The notes: generated by a model not told the origin, from the sequence alone. Numbered from the stretch's first letter, positions 10,838-48,894 are shown. The stretch: DNA of 64,000 bases from a virus (IMGVR_UViG_3300045738_001212:32001-96000), one strand, 5' to 3'. A program made the numbers and translations.

Positions 10838-11186
10838 TGTTGTAATCCTTTTAATTAGTCAGCACACCAGTGATGTTTTAATCCTCTATATTTGGAATCA
10901 ATAAATTTGCTATTTTTTCTCCCTTTCAGACCGTGTTTTAATCCTCTAATACTTAAATGGAGTCATGTTGTTGTAATCCTCTCACCCTATTACTCTCTGT
11001 GTTTTAATCCTCTATATTTGGAGTCAATAAATTTGCTGTTTTTTTATCGGCGTTTGGTTATGTGTTTTAATCCTCTAATACTTAAATTAAATGGCTTTCA
11101 GGGCGATGTTTTAATCCTCACAAAATACATTCCCGAGCTTCATGTGTTTTAATCCTCGTGCTTAAAGCGGCGAATGTTGTAATCCA
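10838..11186 (-). CRISPR. degenerate CRISPR-like array A, 9 repeats
   Basis: TGTT(G/T)TAATCCTC at 10838, 10874, 10934, 10969, 11000, 11063, 11107, 11145, 11175; two carry a 37-nt long form TGTTTTAATCCTCTATATTTGGARTCAATAAATTTGC; unique intervening sequences. Confidence 0.8.
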
Positions 11187-11194
11187 CTACAAGA

Positions 11195-11223
11195 AGTATA
11201 CCACCAGCCTTATTTCGAGTCAA
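11195..11223 (-). promoter_or_regulatory. sigma70 promoter driving array A
   Basis: TTGACT-N17-TATACT, ~9 nt upstream of first repeat. Confidence 0.75.
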
Positions 11224-11314
11224 GAAGATTTATGGGGAAAAATTAATTAATATATTTAAACTTTTTAAAATTTGCGGGGGCCAGATTTGTTTTGACTTTG
11301 TATCAGATTTATGA

Positions 11315-11569
11315 TTACCTTTTCATACGTCGATAGTTCTTCGCCCAAATGACATTGCACATTTCAGTTGCAGTTTGATCTATTCTGGTTTCAGGCCAAG
11401 CAGGATTATAGATGTGGAGCATTTCATGAATAAGAGTATTTAAATATTGTTTAGATTTTAATCTGCCATCTATTTCAATTTTATTTTCTCCTACCCACGC
11501 TAAACCTAGAGCCTTCTCCCTACCGAGAGGCCGCTCTACTACTTCAATTTTAGTCTTTCTTCTAGGCAT
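11315..11569 (-). CDS. small HExxH metallopeptidase-like protein
   Basis: NTLIHEMLH; GTGTAATT motif upstream of ATG. Confidence 0.65.
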   Translation of the reverse strand: MPRRKTKIEVVERPLGREKALGLAWVGENKIEIDGRLKSKQYLNTLIHEMLHIYNPAWPETRIDQTATEMCNVIWAKNYRRMKR

Positions 11570-12405
11570 ATGGGTAATTACACAATGCTACCAACTTTAT
11601 TATAGGTATATTTTGGAGAATATATAAAAAGCGGTCACCCATTTTTTTAAATTTTAATAAACAAATTAACCACTCTCTTCTTTGTATACTATGCCCTTTA
11701 GACCTCTTTTACTAGGTTTTCGGGGGGAAAGTGGGGCAAAGGTGTAGGTTTCTGTGGAGTAGGGGGATTGTAGGCAAGTAGTAGGACAGCGTAAACCAAA
11801 CAAAAGCCTTTTGCAATGCAAATAAACAAAAAAATGCGTTGGACGAAACAATTACAGGCAATGTTGTCTAAATCATCCCTCCTGCTTAACCCCTATCAAG
11901 ACGAGAAGCATCTCAATAGTAACAGGCATTGTTTCTGAGTCCGATGCCAACGCTCACCGTCGATTAGTTAGGGATAATAGTTGCGACAAAAAGTTATTTA
12001 ACCAACAAGGCTACTTCCCCCCAATTTACCTTACAAGAACCCTGCACCATCTCATCGACAATGGTATGGCAGTCTCCTATCCCTTCGCATTCACAACCGC
12101 TTTGCTGGACTAGCTCCGCTGCGTATTCGATGTTATTAGCCTTCACGGCTATCGTGCCTTTCACGACCCAAGTAACAGGTACTTCGTATTTCATTTCGTT
12201 TGGCCTAATGTCTTTTATCCTTATCATTAATCTATATGTGGCGCACCTAGTAACGCCCAGCATATTCTAAACCCAAGGAAGCATATCACTATTATAACTA
12301 TATCACCAATCATGTTTATCCTTTCTTTTGTTGTTGTCTTCGTCCGTACTGATGCCATAAATCTCCGATTTTGCGTTTTGCCCATTCGCTCTTGCCAACT
12401 AGTTG

Positions 12406-12804
12406 TGTTGTAGTCCTCTTAGTCCTCTTTCGCTCGATAAACTCTTTAAACTCTTTAAGGCGTAGCCGCGATGGTACATTAGCATCACCGTTCTTGACGA
12501 TGTTAGCCATGCGATTGTACAGTTCGTCTAGTATCTCTTTATCAGTCATTTCATTATAGGAAGCATTGTTGTAATCCTCATTTTACCGTTTTTTTTGCTG
12601 AGTCCTTCTTTGTTGAGTGCTATGTTCCAAAATGGAACTAACCTCTTCCTCGGCAAGTTGTTTGGGTATGTGTTAGGTGTCGTAATCCTCTTGTCGTGTG
12701 TTGTGCGTGTCAGTGTCTTTTCTTGTTGTAATCCTCTCAAATCCATCGGGTTGGTATGTGCCGCAATCCTCATGTACTCAGGGAGCTTTTTTGTTGTAGT
12801 CCTC
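12406..12804 (-). CRISPR. degenerate CRISPR-like array B, ~6 repeats
   Basis: core repeat at 12406, 12567, 12678, 12724, 12759, 12792; irregular spacing. Confidence 0.6.
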
Positions 12805-14250
12805 TCCCTTGTAATCTTCGGCGGTAACGCTCTTGTACGCAAGGTTATTCGCCTCTTCCCTGTGCAACAGGTCATACATCTTTGGACTCTCACTGGTGGC
12901 GCAGCCGCCAGCAAACAATAATATCAATATAATAATAACTTTCATTTTAATTTAGCTCGGCCTATGGCCTGAATCTGTCTCTTTAAGGTGTTTTCCCCAA
13001 GCTTCCATTTGCTGCTCTTCAGTTAATTCAAAGACGGCGGCGATCATTCGCCTCTCGTCACTCAAGCTCGACTTATCTTTAAAATACTCTTCTCTCCATT
13101 TTAGCCACTCTTCGTAGTTCATTTTCTCACTTGTGCTTTTGTTTTCCACCTGCGGTGAATTCATTTTTCCCCTCCACAATGTCTGGCCTCTCCCTTTCAA
13201 TCATGTCTATGATGTCTTGGCAACGGTCAAAGTATTGGTCTATGCTAAAAGTCGATGACCTTGGCGAATTGGGGCATCTATCGTAGATTGCTTGCAATAG
13301 TTCGTAATTTCTCATCGCTCTATCCTTTCAAAGTGCTTGTCTACAATGTCGAGTAAATCAACCTCTATTCCCCTGACGTACTCAAAATCAGCCATCGGCA
13401 AGTCGCTCAAAAGAGTAGCGAAATACTTTTCAACATCTTCGTGAATGTCTGCCTTAACGTCTAGTATTTTGTATCCCATTATGCGTCCTCCCCGTAAAAG
13501 ACTTTCCATTCGCTGTCGAATACCTCATTGTCGTAGTGGGCTAGACCCTCTTCTATCTTGTCCACCGCGAACTCGTACAGGTCTTTGTCGTCCCATGAGT
13601 CAACCATGTCTCGCGCCAACTTCTCCCTGTTCTCATCATTGTTGGTGATGAGTTGGCCTCCGTTTGGTAATTGTAGTTTCCACATATTGTTATCCTTTCT
13701 TAATTTAGTTCGTGTTGAAAACATTCTAGTTCCCCGCCATTTTTCATCTTGAGTACATAGATTCGGTGCTTACCCCTCCTGCCATGCTTATCAATTACCG
13801 TCCCGTATCCTGAGCATATGCCTTCGTCGGGGTCTTTCCAGTACACTTCGTCTCCAATTTCAAATACCATTAGTCTTCCTCCCTCATTACGTCATTCCTG
13901 TAATCTTGCATTTGGAAAACTGCCTCCATGACTGCATCATGGCATTTTTCATCGTCAGCTTCTAGTGCTTCAGCAGAATAATTTCTCGCTGTTTCCAATA
14001 GTATGCCCATTGCTTCTCTATTAGTCATAATTTTACCTTTCTTTTTTAAATAATTTTTTAATGCTGCTTCCGCCTCATAGAAGGTGGAACTATCCGTGTT
14101 GTTGTGCTTCATTCCTCCCTCATTAGATCATTTGAGTAGTCTTGCAGTTGATCAATCGCTTCGAGAATTTCTTCTTCTTCTTCGTAATCGTCTGCGTGAC
14201 GATTCGCTATCTTCAATACCAACTCCATTGCTTCTTTGTCGCTCATGCTT

Positions 14251-14649
14251 TTACCTTTCTTTTTGCGCTTCATTCTTCTCGCGCTTTTTTATATCTCTTT
14301 GGTTATATCTTGTCTGCGCTTCGGATGGCATATCTTTTTTGACTGCCGCGACTGCCGCTTCGCCTTCCTCATCTGTCGGCCAAGGGTAACCGCGCCCAAT
14401 TTTTCTTTTACTTTTTTTCTCCACCAAGGCGGGACTTTTGACAGGCGGCAAATCTCCCTCTTCGTAGGTATCAAAGCCCGATATGGCCTCCATATACTCC
14501 TGCTCCGTAAAAAGCTCTCTAATGCGCTTCTGGAGGGCATTAATGACCATCTGCTTCTCGTTCTTAAGGCAGTCGTACCAATCCTCGTACTCACTATTGG
14601 GAACTGCGAACGCTATATCCATTGCGTGATTGTATTTCTTTTCTTTCAC
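14251..14649 (-). CDS. hypothetical protein
   Basis: 132-aa ORF. Confidence 0.55.
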   Translation of the reverse strand: MKEKKYNHAMDIAFAVPNSEYEDWYDCLKNEKQMVINALQKRIRELFTEQEYMEAISGFDTYEEGDLPPVKSPALVEKKSKRKIGRGYPWPTDEEGEAAVAAVKKDMPSEAQTRYNQRDIKKREKNEAQKER

Positions 14650-14678
14650 TGTTTACCTTTCTTGTTGTTGTCTCCTAG

Positions 14679-14726
14679 TGTTTTAATCCTCTTATACTTA
14701 TGATCTGCTGTTATGTTTTAATCCTC
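14679..14726 (-). CRISPR. two-repeat mini-array C
   Basis: TGTTTTAATCCTC at 14679 (with TTATACTTA extension) and 14714. Confidence 0.6.
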
Positions 14727-15046
14727 TGTCTTCGCCTGTTAAAACCCATCGTATGTACTCATACATTAGCTTGCTAAAGCTGATGCCGTTACAACTTACT
14801 CGGCTTACTCGATTTTTAAAAAATTTAAATTCACCGTGCTTCATTATACATCCCACTCATTCATTGCCTCTTCCAACACTTGCTCAAAGCTTTTACTATG
14901 CGCGTTTGCTTCTGCTGCTGCGTTTAGCGCACTCCACATCACCTCCGCTTCAAGCCCCCAAGGACGAGCCGCTGCAAGAGCCTGTTCGACTAATTGAATC
15001 TTTGATGGCCTTGGGTTGGTTGAGTCTATGTCTTTGAGTTTCATGT

Positions 15047-15454
15047 TTATTCTGCCGCCCATCCTGCGAAAAGATAAAGGTCATCTCCATCTATGTCGCC
15101 GCATTTAGCGGCCCAAACTTTTTCCCACTTCTCGGTATTGTCCCACGCTTCTTCTTCCCAATCCGCGACACATTTTTTACACCATTCGTCCTCAGTCATA
15201 TCCTTAAAGTGCTTATCAATTTGCTTGAAACCGAAACCATTCCCTACGTTGACTGTAAACTTGACAGACCCTTCGCGCTCGCGAGCAAGAAGTCCCTCAA
15301 GCTCTTTAGTCCTATCCAAATAGCCGCTGGTAGTTGAAATGGTTCCGTTATAGCCATTACTCCCGTGCTGGCTCGTAGCGTAAGTTACAGCGGTGTCATA
15401 AGCTTCTCTCATCGTTTCTCCTACTGCTCTGTCTGATAGGTTATGCGCTCCCAT
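15047..15454 (-). CDS. hypothetical phage protein
   Basis: 135 aa, HGxxGYNGTIST motif and C-terminal YLFAGWA. Confidence 0.65.
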   Translation of the reverse strand: MGAHNLSDRAVGETMREAYDTAVTYATSQHGSNGYNGTISTTSGYLDRTKELEGLLAREREGSVKFTVNVGNGFGFKQIDKHFKDMTEDEWCKKCVADWEEEAWDNTEKWEKVWAAKCGDIDGDDLYLFAGWAAE

Positions 15455-16855
15455 TTTATTCTCTTTCTTCTAAGGGTTGACTGTTTTTAATTCTCTCCGC
15501 TTGTAGTTGTAGCCACAACTTTGCTTCTTCACCGGACTTGAAAGGCCCGAAATCATCTATGTACCAAGTGGTGTTGTCTTCAGCACTAGTGAACTTACTA
15601 AATGTAAGGTCGTCGGTACTCATTCTTTTGGTTCCAGCATCATTGCCATATCCTTAATCCACTTCATCGCTTCGTCTCTTGACTCGAAATTGGCAGGAAA
15701 GATATATTGTACCTCATTATCTCCCCACACCCATTGGCCCACCACCCACTTCTCTTTGCCATTGGGCCACTTGCCAAACTTGAATGCTTTAACATATTTT
15801 TCTAATACTTCCATAATGCTCCCTCCTTTAATCCTTCCATTAGGTGATCTTCCTTTACCCGCATCTGTTCAGTTGAATCATACTCATTCTCAAAATCATC
15901 TGACTCATTGACAACTTCCCAACTGTCCTTGTCCTTCTCATAGTAGATTGCTATGTTCTGGTGAAGGAATCCTCGTTGAAGGTAGCCCTCGAAATGTTCC
16001 ATGCCATCTGACCCAATATCGGCTAACTCTTTTAAGTGTTCGATAGATTTTACTTTTAATCCTCTCATAATTTATCCTTGCGCTAATAATACCATTGATT
16101 TAATCCATACCAGTCCAAACAATGAGGTAATGAGATATTGTGTGCGTAGTTTCATTTAATCCTCCTAGCTTTCACTTCAAGGATTTCGTACCCCATTGCC
16201 GCCGCTTGGTGTTTATAAGCCTCGTAGACTGCCTCTACGCTCCTAAACGCCCCCTTCGTTAACGTCCACAAGGGGTTGTCACACCTTACGGGTTCGCTAT
16301 ACTTAATGTGCATCCAATACTGTTTCATAATCTAATCCTCCATTTGTGATTTTGTTTTCCATTTTAGGAGAGGACAACAATTTTAATCTGCGGTTCGGAC
16401 AGGCCAACTTTCTTTTCTAGTTTGGCAAGACCCTTGCGATACTGTTCTTCGTCCATCCATGTGAAATGTGTAAACTCGGTCGGAATTTTTGATTTTGTTT
16501 TGTTTTCTAGTTTTGCTTTCATTTTGCACCTCCTATGACTACTGGAGGTCTTTCCCGAAATTCATCTATGTAAACGTCGAGTCCTTCTGAACAAAATTCG
16601 TGGACGTAACTCCAATCCATCTTGTCGTTTATGCGCCGTGCAGCCCACTCCCACTCTTCGTCTGTCCATTCAGACTTGCCAGTGTCCTCGTTAGGTTGAC
16701 CGTGGCCAAACATATCCTTTGTCCACCAAGCAATGACTATGCTTTCTTCTGGGTCTAGGTCGCTGAGATATTTAATTGCTTCTTTCGCTGTCACGCGGAT
16801 TTACCTTTCTTCTCTTGGGATTAAAAAAATTACCTTTCTTATCCCTGTGGGTTTA

Positions 16856-17104
16856 TTACCTTGTTCGCCAAACCCGACTAGTCTCATCATTTACCTTGCG
16901 GATGGTGACGCCGAACTCGTCTAAGGTTTTGGACTGTTGATACTTTGCAGCGGAGTAACAGTTCCCTCTTAACTCCGAGTCAAACTCAAACGATTCTCCG
17001 ACTTGTAAAGCCGAAACCGCTTTCGCTATGCTGCTAGTATGTGTTTCTGGCATTGGTATGCCCCTCTGTACTTGGTACTTGTCTAGTTGTTTCATAACAT
17101 TCAT
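16856..17104 (-). CDS. small putative DNA-binding protein
   Basis: GIPMP...LQVGESF...RVWRT pattern. Confidence 0.5.
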   Translation of the reverse strand: MNVMKQLDKYQVQRGIPMPETHTSSIAKAVSALQVGESFEFDSELRGNCYSAAKYQQSKTLDEFGVTIRKVNDETSRVWRTR

Positions 17105-17185
17105 AATAATTTTTTAAAATTTTAAGTTGTAGAGGACACCGAGAGAAGGAGGTAGAAGACTCTCGATGTCCTCTGTTGGGCAACC

Positions 17186-17971
17186 CTATTCTTGGGCTGA
17201 AATCTCTCCCGTCTCGTAATCGTACTCGCCTTCAAAGTAGGTATCTACCACTGGCTCATCCAAAGCCCTTGAGAACACTCCTACGACCTTGTAAGTAGTT
17301 GTCCTGAGTTTCTGACAATCGCAATCCTTCGGGACGCTCACAACGTCAGCGGGATCAATCTCAACTATCACAACATTACTTTGATCGCCACCGAAACTTT
17401 GTGCGTACTCCAAGCTACCCGCATGGAATCCATAAGAACAACCAATGTCGGAATCATCGCAAACAGCGTTGCGAGTCATGGAGTTTACGTCTCCGACCTT
17501 GTTGGAGAATTTACCAGAGTAATGGTCAGTCCAACTACGATTAACGCTCTTGTAGGCAAGGAACTTGCCGTCTGGCGTGAAGGGCATATTCTTGTGCTTC
17601 AAGAATGTGTACAACTCGTTTACCGAGCGGCGTGATGGGTTCACCATCAGACGGTCAAGGAAACGCATGAGTGGTTTGAAATTGCCCTGTATTTGAACGA
17701 GGTCAAGAATACGCTTTGCAATCACGTTGTCGATTTTCTCATCCTTATAACGTAGGATACCAGCGATAAAGTGAATGTTTCCTTCGGAGTGTTTGAGAAT
17801 TGTTGCGGGTATGTCCATAGCCCTGCGAACATTCTCCCAATCTTCCGCCGCAATCGCAGCGCGAGCGGCTTTCCAGTTTGGGTGGTCACTGTTTATCACA
17901 AACATACGATCATCTAGATGTACCGTGAGTGAGTCAGGGGTAAGCACATATTGTTTATCGGCCATTAACAT
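17186..17971 (-). CDS. rIIB: rIIB-like protein
   Basis: FLAYKSV, GFHAGSLEYA, VEIDPADVVSVP motifs; downstream of rIIA-like gene. Confidence 0.8.
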   Translation of the reverse strand: MLMADKQYVLTPDSLTVHLDDRMFVINSDHPNWKAARAAIAAEDWENVRRAMDIPATILKHSEGNIHFIAGILRYKDEKIDNVIAKRILDLVQIQGNFKPLMRFLDRLMVNPSRRSVNELYTFLKHKNMPFTPDGKFLAYKSVNRSWTDHYSGKFSNKVGDVNSMTRNAVCDDSDIGCSYGFHAGSLEYAQSFGGDQSNVVIVEIDPADVVSVPKDCDCQKLRTTTYKVVGVFSRALDEPVVDTYFEGEYDYETGEISAQE

Positions 17972-18308
17972 AATTTAATCCTCCTTGATTTCCCAATTTT
18001 TGAGTTCTGGTTTTAGTTTAATATCGGTTCCAACTTTGCCGTCAAAACTGTCATACACGACCCAACCGATATGCTTTCTGTTTATCTCAGTTCCGTGAGC
18101 GAGAACCTCGCCAAAACTTTCGATATCAAAGTCGCTTGAATCCTTTTCGTTATTCCCCCATGCGAGTCCCACTAGAGTGCAATCATCTCCGATTGGCTTA
18201 GTGAAGCAAATCTCAGCGGTTGGGGGTTTAACTTTCATCTATAAGAAGTATAACTCTAATCCATTCTGAAGTCAAGGATTTTTTTTAACTTTCTGAGAGT
18301 CGTACTCG

Positions 18309-19085
18309 TCAGAACCCCAAGACGCTGAAGAACCCCTCACAATATGGATTTCTCTTCTTCTCTTCTTCCACGTACAACTTGGACAGATCATTGACAGAAA
18401 CCGAACTCTCTCCCCCGCATTGGAAAAGTGTTAGATTTTTATATCGCCGCATAAAATCTAAGATTCTTTCAAAGCCCCCTCTCTTTTGAGAAAGCCAAGG
18501 CGTATGAATCTCTACGTAGATTGGAACCTGCAAGTCTCCAGCGTTCTCGATGATGACATCCTCCATGCCTTCCACGTCAATTTTTAAAAAATTTAAATCG
18601 TTAATTCTTTCGCTCTCGATAAGGGAAGGTAAGGAAATTGATTCGGCCTCGAAAGAGTTTGCTTCGTCAGCGAAAAAAGCAGCAGTCCTACTTGAACCCA
18701 AGGCTGGACAAGTGTTCGGGCAACCTAGTTTAATGCTCTCAGAATCGCCTCCTAGAGCCTTTGGTAGCAGCTTGACATTTGATATGCCATTTATGTGGAT
18801 GTTCTTGCCTGTGATCCTCAGAGCTTCTGAATCCGGCTCAACTGCGTAAACTGTCTTCGCAAGTTCCGCTCCGTACAAAACAGTCTGCCCCAAGTGGACA
18901 CCCGCATCTATGTAAGAGTGATCCTTATCCAGAAAAGACTCTAACACTTTATAAGTATGGCTCTCCCAATCATCCCAAGCCCAGAAGTTTGGGATAGATG
19001 GAGTCTCGTTCTCGTAAACAAAAAAACGAACGCCCCTGCGTTTTACTTCTGTCAGGGAGTTCGTTCTGTATGGGTCTTCACTCAC
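18309..19085 (-). CDS. FkbM-family SAM methyltransferase
   Basis: IDAGVHLG, AVEPD, FLKIDVEGME; likely GTG start overlapping upstream TGA. Confidence 0.8.
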   Translation of the reverse strand: MSEDPYRTNSLTEVKRRGVRFFVYENETPSIPNFWAWDDWESHTYKVLESFLDKDHSYIDAGVHLGQTVLYGAELAKTVYAVEPDSEALRITGKNIHINGISNVKLLPKALGGDSESIKLGCPNTCPALGSSRTAAFFADEANSFEAESISLPSLIESERINDLNFLKIDVEGMEDVIIENAGDLQVPIYVEIHTPWLSQKRGGFERILDFMRRYKNLTLFQCGGESSVSVNDLSKLYVEEEKKRNPYCEGFFSVLGF

Positions 19086-19317
19086 TTTTTCTTTTTGGTT
19101 TTCTTCGCCTCCTTGGCGGCTGTTTCGTACTTTATATTCTCTCGCAGTTCTGACTTGGGGCAGTATGCCCAACCATCGCTAAGTAAATTTCTTAATTGCT
19201 TAAATGATTCTTGGTACTTGCCTTCTGAGTCTGCCTCTTTGGCGATTTCTCTCATGGTGAACCATTGGTTTGGCAGCGGTGATATTTTGGTATACTTTTT
19301 TCCTTTTTTTAGTGTTT

Positions 19318-19617: not shown

Positions 19618-19739
19618 ATTTTTTTTAAAATTTTAATTGCGTCATCCAACTAAAAGAAGGAGACGGGGGAAGCAACCTACTCGCTCCCCCCGCCTCTAGA
19701 ATGCCCCACCGGAAACCTACTAACGATGAGGCAGATTGT

Positions 19740-23178: not shown

Positions 23179-23199
23179 GATTTTTTATTATTTGCGGGG

Positions 23200-31984: not shown

Positions 31985-31993
31985 AATTTAAAT

Positions 31994-35390: not shown

Positions 35391-35391
35391 A

Positions 35392-38948: not shown

Positions 38949-38950
38949 TA

Positions 38951-39520: not shown

Positions 39521-39605
39521 ACTTATTATATTAGTCTCACTTTCGTTTTCTACTTAGAAATAGCCAACTCCCTAAAGTATTATAGGTATACCTTCGGGGA
39601 AAGGA

Positions 39606-40489: not shown

Positions 40490-41154
40490 TCGGTCTTCGG
40501 CTGTGGTCCTCTAGACATAAGGCTCCAAGAAAAATATATGTTTTCAGTCATCTCTTTCGAGAAGGTCGCTTGATACTGAAGCCAAGCGGGAAACACCATG
40601 ACTTTCCCTTCTTTAAGGTCCATCGAAAAAGCGTCAGAATTAAAAATATTAGGTGAAGCGACAGGAGGCTTGATTATCCACGCTTGGGGTCTGGGGTCAT
40701 AAAACGTGACTTTACCTCCTGTTCCCTTCAAGCAATAAATGCCCGCCAACAAGTTATTCGGGCGCATTTCCATCGGGGAAAACTCAGGCTCCTTGACTTT
40801 ATATCCCTTCAGCGATGTCACCATCAAGCTTTCGAAACGAATTCCCACAAACCCAAGCACCCTCTGGGCACTTTCCGAAAGAACATGAGCCAAGGGTTTG
40901 TACTCTTCGAAAGTCTGAAGATTAAAATCGGTAGTCCAATTCGGAGAGTCTTTGGCTCTCATCTTTTCCAAGCTCTCGGGTAAAGAAGAATCCAATTTCT
41001 CCTTCTCTTCCTTGTTGAACTCAAATTCGAAAAGATTCGTCGGGAATATCGGAAAATGCTTTTTGTCCTCAAAAATGGTATCTTCATCTGGTTTTGGAGG
41101 CTCGACGGCTTTCATGGGTTTGATCTCTTCTGGTGCTATTTCTTCAGTATTCAT
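40486..41154 (-). CDS. putative 2OG-Fe(II) oxygenase-like protein, metal ligands degenerate
   Basis: IFPT, AGIYCL, FYDPRP, VMVFPAWL fold motifs but His ligands absent. Confidence 0.6.
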   Translation of the reverse strand: MNTEEIAPEEIKPMKAVEPPKPDEDTIFEDKKHFPIFPTNLFEFEFNKEEKEKLDSSLPESLEKMRAKDSPNWTTDFNLQTFEEYKPLAHVLSESAQRVLGFVGIRFESLMVTSLKGYKVKEPEFSPMEMRPNNLLAGIYCLKGTGGKVTFYDPRPQAWIIKPPVASPNIFNSDAFSMDLKEGKVMVFPAWLQYQATFSKEMTENIYFSWSLMSRGPQPKTD

Positions 41155-41523
41155 TTGTATGCCTTATTTTTCCGCCCTTTATTTCTCTTTTTTTGATGTT
41201 TTTTATACTTCTCTATGCGATCATACACCTCTTGATCTTCGGTTTCATACTCAGGAAACAAAAGGCCAAACGTGTCGCAATATTTTATAAACCAATCCAC
41301 GCACTCATGCAAGACTAAATTGGTATGATTTAACATCAACTTAACTGGGACATGGCTCTTGGAAATGGTACTAATCATCTGATCTGCGGCGTTAATGTTC
41401 ACGAAGTCCTTCGTGAAAACAAAACCGTCATTACTGACAGACAAAACGTAATCCTTCGGATAAATACGCATATTCCAAACGCAATCATTAACTAAGTCTA
41501 CGCTGCCCCTGATCTTCTTCTTC

Positions 41524-42450
41524 TTATCCGAGGATTTCCGCAAGCTCTTTCTTTCTCCTCTCTAAGGTAAAACGTAATTTACGAAAAGCTATTGCTTCAA
41601 TTTGGCGAATACGTTCTCTGGTCACCTTATACTTTGCCCCAATTGTCTCTAGGGTACTATTGTCTCTCGTCCCGAACCCAAAACGAAGTTTCAAGATATC
41701 TACTTCCCTTGGGGTAAGTCTTTCTTCCATTAGCTCACGTAACTGCGTGAACCTATCATTCATCTCCACTTCCTTATCTGGACGCATGAAAACGTTATCA
41801 GGAATAATTTCTGCCATATCCTGATCTTCACTTTCTCCGATTTTCTTATCCAACGAAACTACAGAGTCTCTTGCGAAAAGAATGTTCTGCACTTGCAAAA
41901 CTGATATTCCTATTTCGTGAGAAATTTCTTCCTGAGAGGGTTCATGCTTAAACTCTTCCTTATATGTATTAATGAAATCAAAGACTTTCTTGGTCTTTCC
42001 TTGGTAGTGGACAGGAAGCCTGATTAAATTAGCTTTATTCGCTATAGACCGTAGGATATTTTGCTTGATCCACCAGACCGCGTAAGTAGAAAACTTTACA
42101 GTTACTCCGCTCTTAGCCTTCACTCCGGGTAGATACTTGTCTACCGCCGTGGCTAGACCAATGTTTCCTTCGCTTATTAAATCAATAAAATCCATCCTGC
42201 CTTTGTATCTTTGAGCGATGTTAACCACAAGACGTAGATTTGCCAGTATCATTTTTTCCCTAGCTGCCGCTCCAGCTTTGCGGGTGTGTTGTCCGGCCCT
42301 AGCGTTAGTTTTCCATTTTTGGATTTTAGTCGCAAGAACTTGCTCTTCTCCCCTAGATAAAAGGGGGGCGTTTAGAGCTTCCGAACTATACATCCCCATA
42401 AGGCTGCGATCTTGATATATACTATCCTTGATTTTGGCCTTTTTTTTCAT
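41524..42450 (-). CDS. RNA polymerase sigma70-family (RpoD/SigA-like) factor
   Basis: ANLRLVVNIA, DLISEGNIGL, KFSTYAVWWIKQ, IRLPVH, TLETIG...VTRERIRQIE; no region 1.1. Confidence 0.9.
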   Translation of the reverse strand: MKKKAKIKDSIYQDRSLMGMYSSEALNAPLLSRGEEQVLATKIQKWKTNARAGQHTRKAGAAAREKMILANLRLVVNIAQRYKGRMDFIDLISEGNIGLATAVDKYLPGVKAKSGVTVKFSTYAVWWIKQNILRSIANKANLIRLPVHYQGKTKKVFDFINTYKEEFKHEPSQEEISHEIGISVLQVQNILFARDSVVSLDKKIGESEDQDMAEIIPDNVFMRPDKEVEMNDRFTQLRELMEERLTPREVDILKLRFGFGTRDNSTLETIGAKYKVTRERIRQIEAIAFRKLRFTLERRKKELAEILG

Positions 42451-42986
42451 CGTAATTCCTTTTTTAGTAATCTCCATCTATCGCTATCTATCTTTTTCTC
42501 TCCACTGTCAATGCTCTTCAACATGGCTACTACTTCTTCAATGTTATCGTAAATATAATGATGAGGCAGCATCCCCATCATCCATAGAGGAGTCGCGTGT
42601 TTGCCCCCCTCCATAGAAATGAAAATGGGCTTCTTCATTCTAACCGCTGTGACTATCTCCTCCGCGCTACCCCAGCTTGCTATCTCTGGTAAAAGGTGAG
42701 CTATAATAAAATCGCATCTATCAACAAGATTCAAGTCGTAGCTGCGAACGGTCTTCATTCTCTCGGCTACGTCATTAAAGTAACCATGCTTCTGGCAATG
42801 ATCTAGTGAAAGACGAGTGTCTTCATCCTCATTTACATCCTTTACGAATGGCTTTTTGTAGGGGTTAAAAATTCTAATATCTAGGGGGGCGAGTTCTCCT
42901 TCTACATACTCCCTCCAATCGCGACCATTCGCATATTGCATATGGCCGACCAAATAAGTCCTAGTCTTATATAAGAGGTTTTCCAT
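42447..42986 (-). CDS. nucleoside 2-deoxyribosyltransferase-like protein
   Basis: YLVGHM, DWRE, FNPY, DLNLVDRCD, GSAEE. Confidence 0.65.
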   Translation of the reverse strand: MENLLYKTRTYLVGHMQYANGRDWREYVEGELAPLDIRIFNPYKKPFVKDVNEDEDTRLSLDHCQKHGYFNDVAERMKTVRSYDLNLVDRCDFIIAHLLPEIASWGSAEEIVTAVRMKKPIFISMEGGKHATPLWMMGMLPHHYIYDNIEEVVAMLKSIDSGEKKIDSDRWRLLKKELR

Positions 42987-43239
42987 AGGTAATACTTATG
43001 GAAAGTATAATCCTCTTCAAGGAAAATGTCAAGAAGAAAAGTTGCTATCCAATGACTCCAAACAGTCCTCGGCATTAGCCAATATTTCTAACTGTTTAGC
43101 CATTTCGTCTACTATTTGTGGGTGTTCCCCGATTCCAGCGGCATTTGAGGAGTAAACATCTAGCGTAGCAAGGGCAGAAGCTTTTTCAGCTTCGTACCTT
43201 TGTCGTAGGGCGTTGAATAATAATTTATTTTTTTTCATT

Positions 43240-43779
43240 TTAAAAAGACTGTTCGAGTTCGTCGATTCTTAGATTGTACATATCTACTAGGGTTGTAAAG
43301 TCATTTGACTCATCCCTGTCCCCTTTCTCGAAGAGCCTTGCTTTCTGAAAATACTCTTCTGCTGACATATCCCCGCAATACCAAACATTTTTCAATCCGT
43401 GATAGTCTACTCCCCCCTGTCTCTCTAGACCATCCGCTGCTTTCCCGTAAAAATTACGTCCAGAAAACTCCAGACTAATGAAAACGTACCTATCGGGAAG
43501 CTGGTGCCTACTGGTCTTAGCTACTGAGACATCATAATGTGGAAGTGGAGCAACTGTTCTCCTTTTTGTTTTCACTTCGAGTTTTTCGGAATCATATTCC
43601 AAGTCATGGTCTTTATGATCTGCCACCTCGACCCCAAGGTGCTTGCAGAGAGCAAGTTCCCCTAATCTACCAGCAGCATTACCTTTTCCTTTGACTATGG
43701 AATCTTTAATGCCGCCCAACTGTCTGGCCCATTCATTGGCCGACCTTATCATCTCTCGGTTGTGCGGAAGAATTTTCAT
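43240..43779 (-). CDS. putative PD-(D/E)XK nuclease
   Basis: GRLGE...HDLE...LEVKTK. Confidence 0.5.
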   Translation of the reverse strand: MKILPHNREMIRSANEWARQLGGIKDSIVKGKGNAAGRLGELALCKHLGVEVADHKDHDLEYDSEKLEVKTKRRTVAPLPHYDVSVAKTSRHQLPDRYVFISLEFSGRNFYGKAADGLERQGGVDYHGLKNVWYCGDMSAEEYFQKARLFEKGDRDESNDFTTLVDMYNLRIDELEQSF

Positions 43780-44160
43780 TTATATTGTATGGGCGATTAA
43801 ACTCGATGGCGTTTGAATTGGTGTTGTCATCCTCTTTAACTATTACTTCTTTTAAAACCACCAGCGATGAAGGAATCTTCCCTTGGGATATCAAATAAAG
43901 AAACACTGATTGAAATGTCGCTAAAAATAGCAAAAAACAAACTAATACCCTTAAGTTCCTAACTTTTTTCCTTAGCTCTTCCACAGTCTTGTTTCGATTT
44001 AATACATACGTCTAAACTGTTCATAGCATTCCTAAGATATAAGCTCTCACTCTTGGAATGCTTACCCACCTCCACTATTCTCTCAATTTTGGAATAAACC
44101 TTTTCCAACGCTGGAAGGTGTACCTTTTGTCCTCTAATCATAACAAGTGGTAGTAACCAA

Positions 44161-44242
44161 TGTCGTAATCCTCTGTATTTAGAATCAATAAATTTGCAGT
44201 ATATTGATAGCTACTCCAGTGGTGTCGCATGTCGTAATCCTC
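44161..44242 (-). CRISPR. two-repeat mini-array with one long-form repeat
   Basis: 37-nt TGTCGTAATCCTCTGTATTTAGAATCAATAAATTTGC (44161-44197), 32-nt spacer, core repeat at 44230. Confidence 0.7.
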
Positions 44243-44580
44243 TTAACTGTCCTTAACGAGCCTTTTTGATATCGGCAGTTACCTTATCGAAAGGCTCCTT
44301 GACGTAATGAGAGTTAGCTTCAGTAACGACAACCGTTCCTTCTTTATCGGTCTGCTGCCCGTCGGCTTGCCCCGCAAAGGAGTAGTACTCGATGATTTTG
44401 TCAACTCTGACAGCTAACTGTTCGGTAGCTGCGCGGAGTGTCCCATGTACGTTGGTTTTATACTTATTTAGTTTTAGTGTTTTCATAAAATTTAAGCGCG
44501 AGAGACAGAGCAGAAAGGTATTAACGACCCCGCCTCTCGCAAGTGTAGTTCCGCGTGACACTTCCCTACACTAAATTAAT

Positions 44581-44745
44581 GGGTGAGAGGATTCTCATTT
44601 ACCTCTATCGTTTCGGAGTCACAGCTTGAGTTTCAGTGAGAAACCCTACTTTGAACCAGCCCTTGTAAGCCCCCAGAGACGGTAATCTCCTGCAAACAAG
44701 CCCTGTACCTTAACTGCCGCGACAGCAGTTTATTCGGTCACACCC
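44581..44745 (-). ncRNA. candidate multi-hairpin structured RNA
   Basis: ends pair (GGGTG/CACCC); internal hairpins AACTGC/GCAGTT, GGAGA/TCTCT, GGGTTTC/GAAACTC, AGAGG/CCTCT; intergenic. Confidence 0.5.
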
Positions 44746-45124
44746 TTCGCTGGCGATCAACCAGCAAAATTATTTTAAAGAACAAATATTTTAGAATCTT
44801 CTATGAAGACTCTGGGGTGATATTGATCAATATCTTTCCCGTCTTTTACATTTACAAATTTTCTTTTTTTGTTTACCCGCACTTGATGTTTCCATTTGGG
44901 GCGAGAAGACTTCTTTTCCTCTAGGGAACGAATGTCGCCCAAGTCTACGCAACCCGTAAGAGTTCGCTTGGTGATAGCGACATCCCCCATGTGCAAAGCG
45001 TGTGTGCGCTTAAGCACTACAGGTTTGTCGCCGTATGCGTGTGCTCGCTTACTGCCCTTAACCTCTAGGCACTTCTTCTTTGAATTGTAAATTACTACTA
45101 CTTGCACGTTGTTATTTCTCCAGT

Positions 45125-45171
45125 TGTCGTAATCCTCTATAAATCGGTTAAGGGGTATTGTTGTAATCCTT
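45125..45171 (-). CRISPR. two-repeat mini-array
   Basis: core repeats at 45125 and 45159, 21 nt between. Confidence 0.6.
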
Positions 45172-45658
45172 CAATTAACTCGCCAACTTGACCCTGCCAA
45201 GCCTTGATCCTCGTAATCGCTCTCTGATAAATACTGCTGAACTTCCTCATCGGAAGCGAAAAGCATATTCTTCTCATCAATGTAAAAAATACTTTTGTGG
45301 TAAGCCATCTTGCGAATTACGCCTCCATGAAAGCCTACTCCGCTATCTTCCTTACCGTGAACGCAGGTTATTTTAACTACGTTAGCTGCGTCACTCATAT
45401 ATTTGGCGCATAAGCCCAGCCCTTTCACTTTATAAATCCTGCCTCTGACGGGCTCATGGACGCTTTCGAACGCGCTCTTGATTTCTTCAATATCCTTATC
45501 AACACCATCATCCAGCCAATCGTCCTCATCATCTCCGTACTTCCAAGCTCCTTCAACCCCCTTGGTTCCTTCGTGGCCTACTGGACAGGAATGCTCCTTG
45601 GGCTGCTCTTCCGGCTTGTCCTCGTAAAAAACTTCAATTCCTAAAAGATGAGACTTTT

Positions 45659-46303
45659 TCATAACAGATTTCTATTTTTTATTATCTTCCTTGCTCTTCG
45701 TCTAGCGTAAAATACCCTGCTCATAATCGTTCCTATCGAGCACTTCATTATTTTAGCAGCTTCGGCATAAGATTTTTCTTCTTCTATCACTAGCTCAATA
45801 ACCCTTTTTTGTTCGGGGTTCAGGCTCCCTTTTATCTGCGCCAAAACCTTCTTAAAGTGCTCAAAGCTTTCTTTCTCTTCAAGTCGGTTGCTGGGGCTTT
45901 CATCGTTAAGTAAGAGTATACCAGAACCTTGTAAGAAGTCAAGAGGATTTTTATCATTTTCTAAACAAAAATCTGCACAAAAATCTGAATAGGAAATCTC
46001 CTTAGATTTACGTCTTTTGTCCTGCCTGTAGAAATCATAGAAAGAATTGCGCCCAACCCTGAAAAACCACGTAGCAAAGGCACTTTTGAACTTAAAGGTC
46101 TTTATCCTCCTCCAAGATTTTACGCATGTAAGCTGCAAGATGTCTTTCGCGTCGGCTTCAGATACCCCCATTTTGAACAAAGAAGAGCGCACTAGGGCAC
46201 TATGACGCCCAAGAAGAACCTCGAATGCCTCCTTGCTACCTCTTTGACTCTTCTTTACTAAAGCTTCGTCTTTGAGGTTGGAAAGTTGAACTTTTTTGCT
46301 CAA
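45659..46303 (-). CDS. ECF-type RNA polymerase sigma factor
   Basis: DEALV...GSKEAFEVL, FKFKSAFATWFFR, SYAEAAKIMKCSIGTIMSRVFYAR. Confidence 0.88.
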   Translation of the reverse strand: MSKKVQLSNLKDEALVKKSQRGSKEAFEVLLGRHSALVRSSLFKMGVSEADAKDILQLTCVKSWRRIKTFKFKSAFATWFFRVGRNSFYDFYRQDKRRKSKEISYSDFCADFCLENDKNPLDFLQGSGILLLNDESPSNRLEEKESFEHFKKVLAQIKGSLNPEQKRVIELVIEEEKSYAEAAKIMKCSIGTIMSRVFYARRRARKIIKNRNLL

Positions 46304-46324
46304 TTTTTCTTAAGCTACGGCGAA

Positions 46325-46555
46325 TGTTGTAATCCTCTATACCGATTGGAAGTACTATGTTGTGATCCTCTCAAATACTGGAACAACTCAAATGTTCTAA
46401 TCCTCTGTGCTTCTTTCATTCGGTGGTGTCGTAATCCTCACGCTTATCAAACGAGATGTCGTAATCCCCTTACTTGATACTAGGCTGTGCATAGTTCATC
46501 CCATGTTCTAATCCTCATCCTAATCCTAATCGATTTCGTGGTGTGTCGCAACCCT
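46325..46555 (-). CRISPR. degenerate CRISPR-like array D, 7 repeats, immediately 3' of tmRNA
   Basis: core repeats at 46325, 46358, 46393, 46427, 46457, 46504, 46544; 17-34 nt between. Confidence 0.8.
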
Positions 46556-46561
46556 AAAAAA

Positions 46562-47020
46562 TGGTGGAGGCGGCGGGAATCGAACCCGCGTCTTTGGAGC
46601 CATCGGCTCAAATATACTACAAGCTTAATCAGTGCCATGTTCCTCGTATATAGCAGGTCACTGATTAAACCAACCGGGCCGCTCAAAGAGCGACTGGGAC
46701 TAACGTAAAACGTTAGACGCCTACACGAGTTTGAAGTCACATTTTATACTAGCGTTACAACCGCCCTAGTTTTTTGCTCGCTATCGACGCCCTAGCTCCT
46801 TAACGAGCATCCAGAGTAGGACGGGGCAGAACTTAAGCTGCCAGCGTGGCCTCTTCGGCCCAACCGAAACGAGCGAGAATCTCGTCTGCTTCAGCCAGAG
46901 AAGGAGCCATGTCAATATTACTATTGGCATATATGTTTTTAATGGAAGTTTTAAGAGGCCAACCATCATCCTCTGCTTGCAATCTGGCGTAAGATTCCAA
47001 ATCGAATCCAGTACGCCCCC
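46562..47020 (-). ncRNA. ssrA: tmRNA
   Basis: 5' GGGGGCG pairs with CGCCTCC-A-CCA (G3:U70), GGATTCGA, T-arm GGTTCGATTCCC, tag ORF 46833-46928 ending LAA-stop. Confidence 0.93.
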
Positions 47021-47534
47021 ACAAATATTACACTATAATTCACACCGATGGATTAATTGTTTCGCCTGTTTTGGGCTTTTTTTATTTCTTTTACTCCGTT
47101 TTTGGCAAATTCCTGACAGTGCTTTGCAAAAAAACCGTCCATCCCACATTTTTCCGCCCCTAAATATGAGTATAAGACTATAGCTAGGTTATTTTGCCCA
47201 GCTATCTGGCATTCGTCCGCCATGTCTTCAAGCACCGTCGCCAAAGTCTCTTCTCTGTTCTTCTTCCTCATTTAATTATTTTTAAAAAGATTTTTATCCT
47301 TCAACTCCGCTTTAAAGTTCCGTATCCCTTCCCATCTATAAACAGTGATCGGTATGGTAACGGGCGTCAACAATACATACCATTTTACTGTAAAAAACAC
47401 AAGATACAAAAGGTTACCCAATCCAAATAGCCAAGGATTTGATAACCAGCCCCAATCGTACTGAAACTGCTGCCATAAGAAGACCGAATAGGCGTCTAAT
47501 ACTCCTGAAAGATTTTCTGGATTCATGTCGTTTG

Positions 47535-47918
47535 TTATTTGATTTTTTTTGCGTGTCCCGCTTTTACCAAGAATTCGTTTACGGATTTGCCGTGGTATTT
47601 TCTCGTCCTTATGAAATTTTTAGTTAGTTGAACCTCGCCCAAGCACCTTCCGTATTTTCCGACACCAAGGGAAATCAGGGAAATTTCATTGTCACTGTTC
47701 TCAAGTATCTCCTTGAGCTTGGCCTTGGCTGCGAGCCCTTTCTTTTTCTCCACCTTGTCTCTCGTCCTGCTTTCGTAGGCGTCTATACCCGCTAACCTAA
47801 TGCGCTTCTTAACCCAAGTCTCAAAACCAAGGTCAATCATAGCGTCAATAGTGTCTCCGTCAACTACTTTAACTACTTTAGCTTTGTAGCGATACATCTT
47901 AGCTATTCCCCAGCCCAC
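47535..47918 (-). CDS. thermonuclease (SNase-like)
   Basis: KVVDGDT, RIRLAGIDAYE, GKYGR, LVKAGHA. Confidence 0.85.
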   Translation of the reverse strand: MGWGIAKMYRYKAKVVKVVDGDTIDAMIDLGFETWVKKRIRLAGIDAYESRTRDKVEKKKGLAAKAKLKEILENSDNEISLISLGVGKYGRCLGEVQLTKNFIRTRKYHGKSVNEFLVKAGHAKKIK

Positions 47919-48272
47919 TCTTCTTGTATTACGTGGTCTATTAAGCCCTCTATCCAGTCATTAAACGTATCTTGATCGAAGTCAGTCTCCCCCGTTTCCG
48001 CCCTGTACATGTCGAGAAACTCTTCATCCACCTCCATGAGGAGTTCTCTCTTGTTGCCCTTCACTTCTAGTTCTCTTATTACTTTTATTTTCATTAATAG
48101 CTCCTATTTTAGCCAGAAGTTCGTCTATCAAATCAAGCTGAGACATTGCGTAGACGAATCTCGTTCTGCTTAGATTGCTACCATGAGGGCTATATTTGTG
48201 CAACTCTTTTGTTCGTAGTTTTTTCCTTTTTTCAAGGATTTCTATAATCTTGTGTTTATCCATATACTCGTA

Positions 48273-48894
48273 TGTCGTAATCCTCTTAATATCGTCGGGA
48301 CGAAGCATGTCGCAATCCTCTTGTGCAGTCCAACCATATTTGTGTTCTAATCCTCTTAAAATCAGACTATGCGTACCCTGCGTGTTCTAATCCTCTTAAA
48401 ATATACAGGAGCAATCATGTTGCAATCCTCACTCTTAAAAGTTCACTACGGCGTGCTGTGTTGTAATCCTCTTTAAATCGCAAGCTGCTCATGTGTTATA
48501 ATCCTCTTGGTCCAAAGTATGACTGATGTTGTAATCCTCTTATACTTAAATTCGGTTACATGAGGTGCGTGTTGTAATCCTCGCTGGTTTTGTTGGTAAT
48601 GTTTTAATCCTCTTATACTTAAAAAACGCGCACAGCTTGAAATGTTTTAATCCTCTCAAATTTTACCACGATACTCCATGTTGTAATCCTCTCATGCTAA
48701 AATTACTTCTTCTGTTGTCGTAATCCTCTTTAACAGCCGTCGCAATGTTTTAATCCTCATACTTAAACTGTGCAGATTGACTCCCTGTGTTGTAATCCTC
48801 TTATACTTAAATTAGGATAAATCCGAATTATGTTTTAATCCTCTTACTTAAATTGTCAAATTCAGTCATCAGTAGGGTAAGTGTTTCAATCCTC
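48273..48894 (-). CRISPR. main degenerate CRISPR-like array E, 17 repeats
   Basis: 13-nt TGTYN(T/C)AATCCTC at 48273, 48308, 48343, 48383, 48418, 48459, 48494, 48527, 48570, 48600, 48643, 48679, 48716, 48746, 48788, 48831, 48882; 17-38 nt between, part of which is a shared TTATACTTAAA extension. Confidence 0.85.

What the first reader, a model, noticed from the sequence alone, without database searches (positions are those of the whole stretch)
10838..48894. Same repeat forms seven dispersed, co-oriented arrays (~45 copies) across ~38 kb
Seen: arrays at 10838-11186 (9), 12406-12804 (6), 14679-14726 (2), 44161-44242 (2), 45125-45171 (2), 46325-46555 (7) and 48273-48894 (17). All are in one orientation matching local minus-strand transcription, mostly intergenic. 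Inference: one effector is fed by a distributed guide library in different transcription units (early region versus later), allowing timed guide expression. The two-repeat units resemble viral mini-arrays.
Basis: partly seen in the sequence, partly recalled or inferred. Interest (0 to 1): 0.85.

Follow-up and report, generated by a model that had tools for sequence, protein, structure and literature searches.

The report
Phage TnpB guide-like short-repeat arrays
A marine T4-like phage carries about 45 same-strand copies of a 13-14-base repeat, each followed by 17-30 bases of unique sequence; they lie in seven clusters beside and far from a domesticated TnpB nuclease gene and its conserved small RNA, and most likely form a dispersed library of short guide RNAs, though no target has been found.

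Summary
On the minus strand the core GAGGATTRNRACA occurs 51 times at up to 1 mismatch (1.3 expected), always in one orientation. About 44 copies sit in the seven clusters named.

The largest cluster (17 units) lies directly 3' of a single-copy, syntenic 492-aa TnpB with an intact RuvC triad. A conserved, structured ~170-nt small RNA upstream of TnpB carries two AAUCCUC anti-repeats. No omega-RNA-like structure exists at the usual 3' position.

Cluster A1 (9 units) is a non-coding transcription unit with its own sigma70-type promoter and terminator.

About 45 marine metagenome contigs carry the same repeat. In 203 distinct units the gap between cores starts sharply at 17 nt. Units duplicate, drop out and reassort between arrays.

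Best reading (about 0.5): a TnpB-derived, tracr-dependent guide system with minimal repeats and dispersed arrays.

Weak points:
- No convincing protospacer was found.
- The pairing is only 7-9 bp.
- About a third of the spacers are conserved, and some double as gene leaders.

"Timed expression" is not supported: both mapped promoters are of the same early class.

Earlier notes of this scan on this same genome had already flagged the TnpB and the small RNA.

The parts
10838..11187 (-). Array A1: 9 repeat+spacer units, non-coding
   Evidence: No minus-strand ORF. Homologous arrays in L021, L024, L068, L082 and others have conserved flanks but different content.
11195..11223 (-). Sigma70-type promoter of A1 (TTGACT-17-TATACT, TG-extended); +1 falls on the first core (GTGGATTACAACA)
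   Evidence: conserved in relatives.
10702..10723 (-). Intrinsic terminator closing the A1 transcription unit
   Evidence: 9-bp stem, 6 GC pairs, T-run; conserved in L021.
12406..12804 (-). Cluster A2. Three intergenic units (12759-12771, 12724-12736, 12678-12690). Two single units lie 17 and 20 nt before start codons (12567-12579, 12406-12418). One copy is inside coding sequence (12792-12804).
   Evidence: The same locus in L075 holds 10 units and shares only the first two spacers.
14679..14726 (-). Cluster A3: 2 units upstream of gene 14251-14649
   Evidence: 5 units at the homologous place in L024.
44161..44242 (-). Cluster A4: 2 units separated by a promoter-like fragment (AAATTTATTGATTC...)
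45125..45171 (-). Cluster A5: 2 units. Both spacers are conserved in relatives; the second ends 17 nt before the GTG start at 45107.
   Evidence: In L010 an 87-aa gene lies between these two units.
46325..46555 (-). Cluster A6: 6 units plus one degenerate copy, between the 3' end of a tmRNA gene and the ECF-like sigma gene. The last spacer is the conserved leader of the sigma gene.
48273..48894 (-). Array A7: 17 units directly 3' of TnpB and the small ORF
   Evidence: no minus-strand ORF above 37 aa.
48895..49137 (-). Small conserved ORF (80 aa, CxxC) overlapping the TnpB stop codon; contains a degenerate core at 49046-49058
   Evidence: (54% and 40% identity to relatives). No Pfam match.
49130..50608 (-). 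TnpB/Cas12f-like RNA-guided nuclease, 492 aa, single copy
   Evidence: Pfam OrfB_IS605 + Cas12f1-like_TNB + HTH. RuvC D/E/D and Zn ribbon intact. Model pLDDT 85.6; best structural match ISDra2 TnpB. One copy and no Cas1 in the genome.
50622..50792 (-). Conserved structured small RNA with two AAUCCUC anti-repeats: one in a single-stranded linker, one in the loop of the terminal GC hairpin
   Evidence: Of 45 predicted pairs, 10 show compensatory changes.
50795..50822 (-). Sigma70-type promoter of the small RNA/TnpB unit (TTGACT-16-TATACT)

Best explanation
The repeats are the short 'repeat' halves of guide RNAs for the phage's domesticated TnpB nuclease.

Proposed mechanism (inferred throughout):
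1. The ~170-nt small RNA upstream of tnpB acts as a tracrRNA-like scaffold. That it is a real, structured, conserved RNA always paired with this tnpB is shown; its role is inferred.
2. Host RNA polymerase transcribes the arrays as long precursors. A1 has its own early promoter, A7 forms the 3' part of the tnpB operon, and the others ride on polycistronic early transcripts.
3. Each GAGGAUUA pairs with (U)AAUCCUC of the scaffold.
4. The non-complementary but conserved UUAMAACA is read by the protein.
5. The next 17-20 nt serve as the guide for TAM-dependent DNA cleavage by the intact RuvC site, probably on competing phages or the host.

There is no adaptation module. The library changes by duplication, loss and recombinational reshuffling of whole units, which is shown by comparison of relatives. 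The phage's own arrays are spared because the repeat end is presumably not a TAM (inferred).
For: Repeat anatomy:
- 51 copies against 1.3 expected, all on one strand.
- The same holds in about 45 independent marine contigs, with 0 reverse copies.
- The repeat has sharp boundaries and the spacers carry no positional information.
- In 203 distinct units the gap between cores is <=16 nt in 4, 17-30 nt in 152 and >30 nt in 47. The lower limit fits a guide of 16-20 nt.

Link to TnpB:
- The largest array is immediately 3' of tnpB, the position typical of type V arrays (PMC10691335).
- TnpB has an intact RuvC triad and Zn ribbon, invariant across its clade, and a TnpB fold.
- It is single copy, syntenic in relatives, and has no TnpA or Cas1.

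Small RNA:
- It is present upstream of tnpB in all 8 relatives examined, whatever the upstream neighbour.
- 10 covarying pairs support its structure.
- AATCCTC occurs 8 times on that strand of the 158-kb genome, twice within 24 nt in this RNA. TAATCCTC occurs there and nowhere else on that strand.
- No conserved structure exists where a canonical omega RNA would lie.

Arrays as RNA:
- A1 is a dedicated non-coding unit with a strong promoter, +1 on the first core, and a terminator. The flanks are conserved while the content differs in relatives.
- Units behave as modules: a perfect unit duplication in L099, single-unit indels within a population, and the same spacer in A7 here but in A1-like arrays elsewhere.

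Weaker points:
- The last 13 nt of the Un1Cas12f1 sgRNA scaffold before the guide (GAAGGAATGCAAC) match the GCA variant of the core at 10 of 13 positions.
- One conserved spacer of relatives matches 21 of 21 nt in a primase-like gene of an unrelated phage contig.
Against: No targets for this phage's spacers:
- Own genome at <=3 mismatches is at shuffle level.
- Cultured phages give only chance-level hits.
- Exact scans of IMG/VR found nothing.
- GTDB genomes gave 13 scattered hits for one conserved spacer, about as expected by chance.
- Relatives' loci are at shuffle level.

Other weaknesses:
- The single 21-nt match has p of about 0.01-0.03 and stands alone.
- Repeat:anti-repeat pairing is only 7-9 bp. 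Its predicted duplex energy (-11 kcal/mol) is no better than that of random 16-mers.
- 14 of 44 spacers are conserved in relatives. Several last units sit 17-21 nt before start codons, so they may be leaders rather than guides.
- Spacers are not more conserved than the degenerate repeat positions.
- Two relatives with TnpB and the small RNA (L014, L026) show no repeats in the 1.6-4.3 kb available downstream.
- Spacer length is irregular and no processing signal is known.
- No expression data exist.
Confidence: 0.5

Rival explanations
1. RNA-level regulatory sites or a sponge. The small RNA has a CCUCC-containing, anti-Shine-Dalgarno-like seed. It binds GAGGAUUA in the leaders of a set of early mRNAs, and the multi-copy arrays titrate it (or 30S subunits). 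TnpB is not involved, and the spacers are filler or leaders.
For: The core contains an SD-like GAGGA and the small RNA loop holds UAAUCCUCC. Single units lie 17-21 nt upstream of start codons in the window and in relatives, and some of these leaders are conserved. Spacers are no more constrained than the degenerate repeat positions. No targets were found.
Against: The non-complementary part UUAMAACA, and the rule 'not G' at the next base, are as conserved as the pairing part, which implies another reader. The small RNA is always attached to tnpB, which otherwise lacks any guide RNA. Most genes have no such leader. The sharp 17-nt minimum gap is not required by a sponge. Only about a quarter of units offer an ATG in register.
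Confidence: 0.18
2. DNA-level sites. The 13-bp motif is bound on DNA by a phage protein or by the TnpB-small RNA complex using AAUCCUC as a short fixed guide with TGT as a TAM-like element. It would mark or regulate the early region, in the manner of TldR or sigma-TnpB.
For: Read on the + strand, TGTYNY followed by AATCCTC has the TAM-then-target geometry of TnpB. The motif is confined to one ~38-kb early region and is strictly oriented. An ECF-like sigma gene is syntenic 3 kb away, and its leader carries a conserved unit. The 30-bp minimum centre-to-centre spacing could be a footprint.
Against: RuvC is intact, whereas TldR and sigma-TnpB are nuclease-dead (PMC10691335). A 7-9-nt guide is very short. 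Seventeen tandem sites inside a dedicated promoter-terminator unit have no obvious DNA-level purpose. No -10 or -35 partner element lies at a fixed distance.
Confidence: 0.12
3. Recombination or regulatory cassette boundaries, like the PeSL elements of T4-type phages. The repeat marks borders of mobile small-gene cassettes, and the arrays are stubs left by cassette loss.
For: The units lie in hyperplastic regions of small ORFs. In L010 an 87-aa gene sits between two units that are adjacent in the window. Promoter fragments lie inside arrays. Units reassort between loci. PeSL precedent: PMC2839356, PMC4122927.
Against: Recombination between two boundaries leaves one boundary, not an array. There is no stem-loop or full promoter in the unit. 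A1 is a conserved, dedicated non-coding transcription unit. The 17-nt minimum gap and the complementary small RNA are left unexplained.
Confidence: 0.08

Closest known systems
TranC / type V systems with a split omega RNA (tracrRNA + crRNA), e.g. LaTranC, Cas12f (Jin et al. 2025, as cited in PMC13565253; PDB 9JFO, 8J12)
   Same: A small TnpB-fold effector with an intact RuvC site. A separate structured RNA carries an anti-repeat. The repeat lies 5' of the guide and the main array lies 3' of the effector gene. There is no adaptation module. The repeat end resembles the Cas12f repeat end.
   Different: The repeat is only 13-14 nt, against 23 nt or more. Spacers vary from 17 to 30 nt or more. The arrays are split into at least seven places over 38 kb, some as single units in front of genes. 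The scaffold gene lies upstream of the effector. The protein is closer to ISDra2 TnpB than to Cas12f or TranC.
IS200/IS605 TnpB-omega RNA (ISDra2; PDB 8H1J, 8EXA)
   Same: Best sequence and structure match. RuvC and Zn ribbon are conserved. The inferred guide length is 16-20 nt.
   Different: No TnpA, single copy, fixed syntenic position in phage genomes. No omega-RNA structure at the 3' end of the gene. Many guides instead of one.
Phage-encoded miniature Cas12 systems (Cas12p 'hacker', bioRxiv 10.1101/2025.01.20.633832; Cas-lambda, Cas-phi)
   Same: Phage-borne compact type V effectors, with tracrRNA in the case of Cas12p, thought to target rival nucleic acids. Cas12p is a structural neighbour (rank 8).
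   Different: Those systems have canonical CRISPR arrays next to the effector and larger proteins (500-800 aa). Here the repeats are minimal and dispersed.
TldR and sigma-associated dTnpB/dCas12f (PMC10705468; PMC10691335 section 'Sigma-TnpB')
   Same: Domesticated, immobile TnpB with short guides. A sigma factor gene lies nearby.
   Different: Those proteins are nuclease-dead and use a single adjacent guide RNA. Here the RuvC triad is invariant, and the sigma gene is 3 kb away with no shown link.
PeSL mobile regulatory cassettes of T4-type phages (PMC2839356, PMC4122927)
   Same: Short repeated elements between small early genes in hyperplastic regions of T4-like phages, associated with modular shuffling.
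   Different: PeSLs are promoter plus stem-loop composites that occur singly. They do not form arrays with unique spacers and have no complementary small RNA.

Membership tests
CRISPR-Cas type V (Cas12 + CRISPR array) | Effector of the TnpB/Cas12 fold with a RuvC D-E-D site | tested here: met
CRISPR-Cas type V (Cas12 + CRISPR array) | Array of regularly spaced direct repeats of about 23 nt or more, with spacers of similar length | tested here: not met
   The conserved repeat is 13-14 nt, with an optional 11-nt A/T-rich extension. Gaps are 17-30 nt or more and irregular. Rfam CRISPR-DR models give only 17 bits against a 45-bit threshold.
CRISPR-Cas type V (Cas12 + CRISPR array) | Spacers match foreign DNA next to a PAM | tested here: inconclusive
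   No match for the window's spacers. One isolated 21-nt match for a relative's spacer.
CRISPR-Cas type V (Cas12 + CRISPR array) | Adaptation genes cas1/cas2 (absent in many type V subtypes) | tested here: not met
   No Cas1 in the 158-kb genome.
TranC / tracr-dependent split-omega systems | A separate scaffold RNA with an anti-repeat complementary to the repeat | tested here: met
   A conserved structured small RNA with two AAUCCUC. The pairing is only 7-9 bp and its energy is not distinctive.
TranC / tracr-dependent split-omega systems | Effector loaded with scaffold plus array-derived RNA, and guide-dependent cleavage | not testable with these tools
   Needs RNA-seq, RIP and TAM-depletion assays.
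IS200/IS605 TnpB-omega RNA transposon | Mobile element: TnpA or transposon ends, multiple copies | tested here: not met
   Single copy. Same synteny in relatives and no TnpA nearby.
IS200/IS605 TnpB-omega RNA transposon | Omega RNA overlapping the 3' end of tnpB | tested here: not met
   Consensus fold of 8 relatives is -2.65 kcal/mol with 4 pairs and no covariation.
TldR / sigma-TnpB (nuclease-dead RNA-guided regulators) | Loss of RuvC catalytic residues | tested here: not met
   D272, E375 and D475 are invariant in 28 aligned sequences.
PeSL regulatory cassettes | Early promoter plus stem-loop composite at cassette borders | tested here: not met
   The unit has no -35/-10 pair and no hairpin.

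The most novel reading that the evidence does not exclude
Each repeat+spacer unit placed directly in front of a small accessory gene is a guide-plus-cargo cassette. During co-infection, the TnpB-small RNA complex loaded with that leader-derived guide would cut a related phage at the matching site that lacks the cassette. Repair would then copy the cassette across. This would be RNA-guided homing of phage accessory genes. The gene-less arrays would be stockpiles of guides kept after cargo loss, and early mRNAs would double as guide precursors.
Probability: 0.08. Interest if true: 0.92.

Novelty: new variant of a known kind. Interest (0 to 1): 0.72.

Why it matters
If the units are guides, this would be the most reduced repeat-spacer architecture known to me for a TnpB/Cas12 enzyme. 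It has a 13-14-nt repeat, spacers of variable length, and a library scattered over a phage's early region instead of one array.

It would be a living example of the step between a one-guide transposon nuclease and a CRISPR array, with units visibly duplicating and reshuffling and no Cas1. It occurs in an abundant group of marine phages (about 45 contigs). It would also offer a compact multiplex guide format.

If the units are not guides, the system is still an undescribed small RNA/repeat regulon of T4-like marine phages.

Tried and rejected
Readings rejected:
- General ribosome-binding site. Most genes lack the motif upstream.
- Mini-ORFs. Only about a quarter of units have an in-register ATG, and frames run through into the next unit.
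- Sigma70 or ECF promoter array. No partner element lies at a fixed distance, spacer positions carry no information, and start codons lie only 17-21 nt after the core.
- Replication iterons or helical phasing. Gaps are spread over 17-30 nt.
- Genuine CRISPR. No significant Rfam CRISPR-DR hit. L042, found by the pattern, is an unrelated real CRISPR.
- The idea that spacers are more conserved than degenerate repeat positions. Mismatch rates are 11.7% and 10.9%.

Target searches that found nothing usable:
- Self-targeting in the own genome.
- Cultured phages.
- Five exact IMG/VR scans. One further scan gave the single L142 match.
- One GTDB scan, with scattered chance hits.
- 268 spacers against 0.4 Mb of relatives' DNA and against L142.

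Other dead ends:
- Duplex energy of the small RNA with the repeats is not distinctive.
- L014 and L026 carry no alternative repeat family near TnpB.
- Whole-record scans of the long ENA/JGI relatives were not possible, nor was a relatives search for a virus record.
- No close cultured relative or host could be named; the best rIIA match is 27.5% identity to Roseobacter phages.


Full report
OBSERVATION

Shuffles give 1.34 on average. In the whole 158-kb virus record there are 37 exact copies forward and none reverse, all inside this window.

A position-by-position count over 44 copies shows a sharply bounded repeat:
- an A before the core in 34 of 44 copies;
- 13 conserved bases, of which positions 8-10 are degenerate;
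- a following base that is almost never G;
- then no information at all.

Some copies carry an A/T-rich 5' extension (TTTAAGTATAA).

A few of the 51 hits are not array units:
- 12792-12804 codes E-D-Y-N at the end of a gene.
- 49046-49058 lies in a small ORF.
- 49474 is the E-D-L-N of the RuvC-II motif of TnpB itself.
- 55782 is the ribosome-binding site of a gene.
- 4910, 42818 and 55076 are isolated hits outside the clusters.

WHAT SURROUNDS THE REPEATS

The window is the early/middle region of an uncultured marine T4-like phage. It encodes rIIA, a clamp-loader-like ATPase, two sigma factors and metabolic genes. The nearest cultured relatives are Roseobacter phages, at only 27.5% identity for rIIA.

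The 17-unit array A7 begins at the stop codon of an 80-aa ORF that overlaps the end of a 492-aa TnpB gene at 49130-50608.
- Pfam finds HTH_OrfB_IS605, OrfB_IS605 and Cas12f1-like_TNB.
- Alignment to ISDra2 TnpB shows the RuvC D/E/D triad and the Zn ribbon intact. They are invariant in 28 aligned homologues.
- The AlphaFold model (pLDDT 85.6) is closest to ISDra2 and ISFba1 TnpB, followed by Cas12f, Fanzor2, Cas12p and LaTranC.
- The gene is single copy, and the genome has no Cas1.
- Homologues of 58-78% identity sit at the same syntenic place in related marine phage contigs, with no TnpA.

Upstream of tnpB a TTGACT-16-TATACT promoter drives a ~170-nt RNA.
- It is present in all eight relatives examined, whatever gene lies upstream.
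- It has 45 predicted pairs, 10 of them with compensatory changes.
- Near its 3' end it carries AAUCCUC twice: once in a single-stranded linker and once, as UAAUCCUCC, in the loop of a GC-rich terminal hairpin.
- On that strand of the 158-kb genome AATCCTC occurs only 8 times, and TAATCCTC occurs only here.
- Where a canonical omega RNA would lie, at the 3' end of tnpB and beyond, relatives share no structure.

This agrees with the earlier follow-up note e1-5731328 on the same genome, whose claim I re-tested.

ARRAY A1 IS A DEDICATED NON-CODING GENE

A TG-extended TTGACT-17-TATACT promoter at 11223-11195 places +1 on the first core, GTGGATTACAACA. Nine units follow, and a strong terminator closes the unit at 10723-10702. 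No ORF is present. The promoter belongs to the same class as those of the small RNA, rIIA and others. I therefore see no evidence for differential timing.

A6 starts a few bases after the CCA end of a phage tmRNA gene. The remaining units fill intergenic gaps.

RELATIVES

A two-core pattern scan found 5 viral loci and 89 metagenome stretches. After removing regular tandem repeats and one unrelated true CRISPR (L042), about 45 marine contigs carry the same repeat, and reverse-strand copies are essentially absent.

In 203 distinct units the gap between cores is distributed as follows:

| Gap between cores | Units |
|---|---|
| 16 nt or less | 4 |
| 17-30 nt | 152 |
| more than 30 nt | 47 |

The longer gaps often hold promoter-like fragments. 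The base after the core is T in 55%, C in 29%, A in 15% and G in 1%.

Last units of arrays, and the single units of relatives, sit 16-21 nt before start codons. Most genes have no such element.

TURNOVER VERSUS CONSERVATION

The flanks of A1 (promoter and tail) are nearly identical in L021, but the interior shares only one diverged spacer. At the A2 locus, L075 has 10 units where the window has 4-5, and only the first two are shared.

Within one population single units are present or absent (L082, L054, L107). L099 has a perfect tandem duplication of one unit. The same spacer can sit in A7 here and in A1-like arrays elsewhere; examples are CGCACCTCATGTAACYGAA in 13 contigs and TGGAGTATCGYGGTAAAATTTGA.

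Of the window's 44 spacers, 12 have homologues among the metagenome contigs and 2 more in L010/L017. Three of these are leaders of genes, including the ECF-like sigma gene.

I could not show that spacers are under tighter constraint than the degenerate repeat positions. Mismatch rates are 11.7% for spacers and 10.9% for those positions.

TARGETS

- None in the own genome beyond shuffle level.
- None in cultured phages.
- None in IMG/VR for the three window spacers scanned, nor for the most conserved spacer, which the window shares with relatives.
- Thirteen scattered hits in GTDB genomes for that same spacer, about as expected by chance.
- Nothing above shuffles in 0.4 Mb of relatives' DNA.

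One conserved spacer of the L082 group matches 21 of 21 nt in a primase-like gene of an unrelated phage contig, L142. I put this at p of about 0.01-0.03. No other spacer hits that contig. It is a lead only.

INTERPRETATION

The following features fit a TnpB-derived, tracr-dependent guide system whose omega RNA has been split, as described for TranC (PMC13565253; PMC10691335):
- strict strandedness;
- a sharp repeat edge next to variable sequence;
- a 17-nt minimum spacer;
- the main array 3' of an active-looking, immobile TnpB that has no omega RNA of its own;
- a dedicated structured RNA bearing the complement of the invariant half of the repeat;
- a stand-alone promoter-to-terminator array gene.

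The non-complementary half of the repeat (UUAMAACA, then not G) is just as conserved, which points to protein contact. It resembles the last bases of the Cas12f sgRNA scaffold before the guide at 10 of 13 positions. That resemblance is a lead, not a test.

Against this reading:
- no targets for this phage's spacers;
- pairing of only 7-9 bp with unremarkable energy;
- conserved, leader-like spacers;
- two TnpB + small RNA relatives with no repeats in the short flanks available.

I put the guide-library reading at about 0.5. The rivals are an RNA-level regulon or sponge at about 0.18, DNA-level sites at about 0.12, and PeSL-like cassette borders at about 0.08.

COMPARISON WITH KNOWN SYSTEMS

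The system works most like a tracr-dependent type V or TranC system, but it fails the CRISPR array definition on repeat length and regularity. It is not an IS605 transposon: it is immobile and has no 3' omega RNA. It is not a TldR or sigma-TnpB: RuvC is intact. It is not a PeSL.

I found no description of 13-14-nt repeats dispersed in this way in the papers searched. I class it as a new variant of a known kind.

Noticed in passing
window 46562-47020 (-): Full-length phage-encoded tmRNA gene (Rfam RF00023, 123.9 bits, E 8e-50), which ARAGORN did not report. The insertion in the tag-coding region is unusually long. Two ORFs listed over it are probably spurious. Array A6 begins just after its CCA end.
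   Followed up: partly
window 44576-44766 (-): manA RNA motif (Rfam RF01745, 57.3 bits against a gathering score of 55.2) in the 213-nt gap between two small genes. It contains one of the genome's few sense-strand AATCCTC words.
   Followed up: no
window 1-8004 and the 5 kb before the window (-): A run of about 17 TTGACA-N17-TAYAYT promoters, each followed 6-7 nt later by ATG. These look like leaderless small early genes, many starting ATGAAACCTAC.
   Followed up: no
window 48895-49137 (-): An 80-aa CxxC ORF overlapping the tnpB stop codon, conserved in five relatives with no Pfam match. Its N-terminal coding repeat (GLQQxMNE) coincides with one or two degenerate copies of the repeat core. It may be an accessory protein, or an ORF grown over former array units.
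   Followed up: partly
L142:1968-1988 (IMGVR_UViG_3300031812_000259): A 21/21-nt identity between the conserved spacer TCGTAGGTGGATTCGTTGAA(T) of relatives' A1-like arrays and a primase/polymerase-like gene of an unrelated phage. This is the only candidate protospacer.
   Followed up: partly
L042 (Ga0187893_10035223): An unrelated GC-rich genuine CRISPR with 67 repeats of about 37 nt ending in GAGGATTGAAAC, picked up by the search pattern. The likeness to the phage core is probably coincidental.
   Followed up: no
window 10946-11075 and 44173-44230; L068, L082, L111 arrays: The long 'spacers' inside arrays contain diverged copies of parts of the A1 promoter region (TTGACTCCAAATAT... and CGAAATAACGTG...). 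This suggests repeated recombination between promoter and array.
   Followed up: partly
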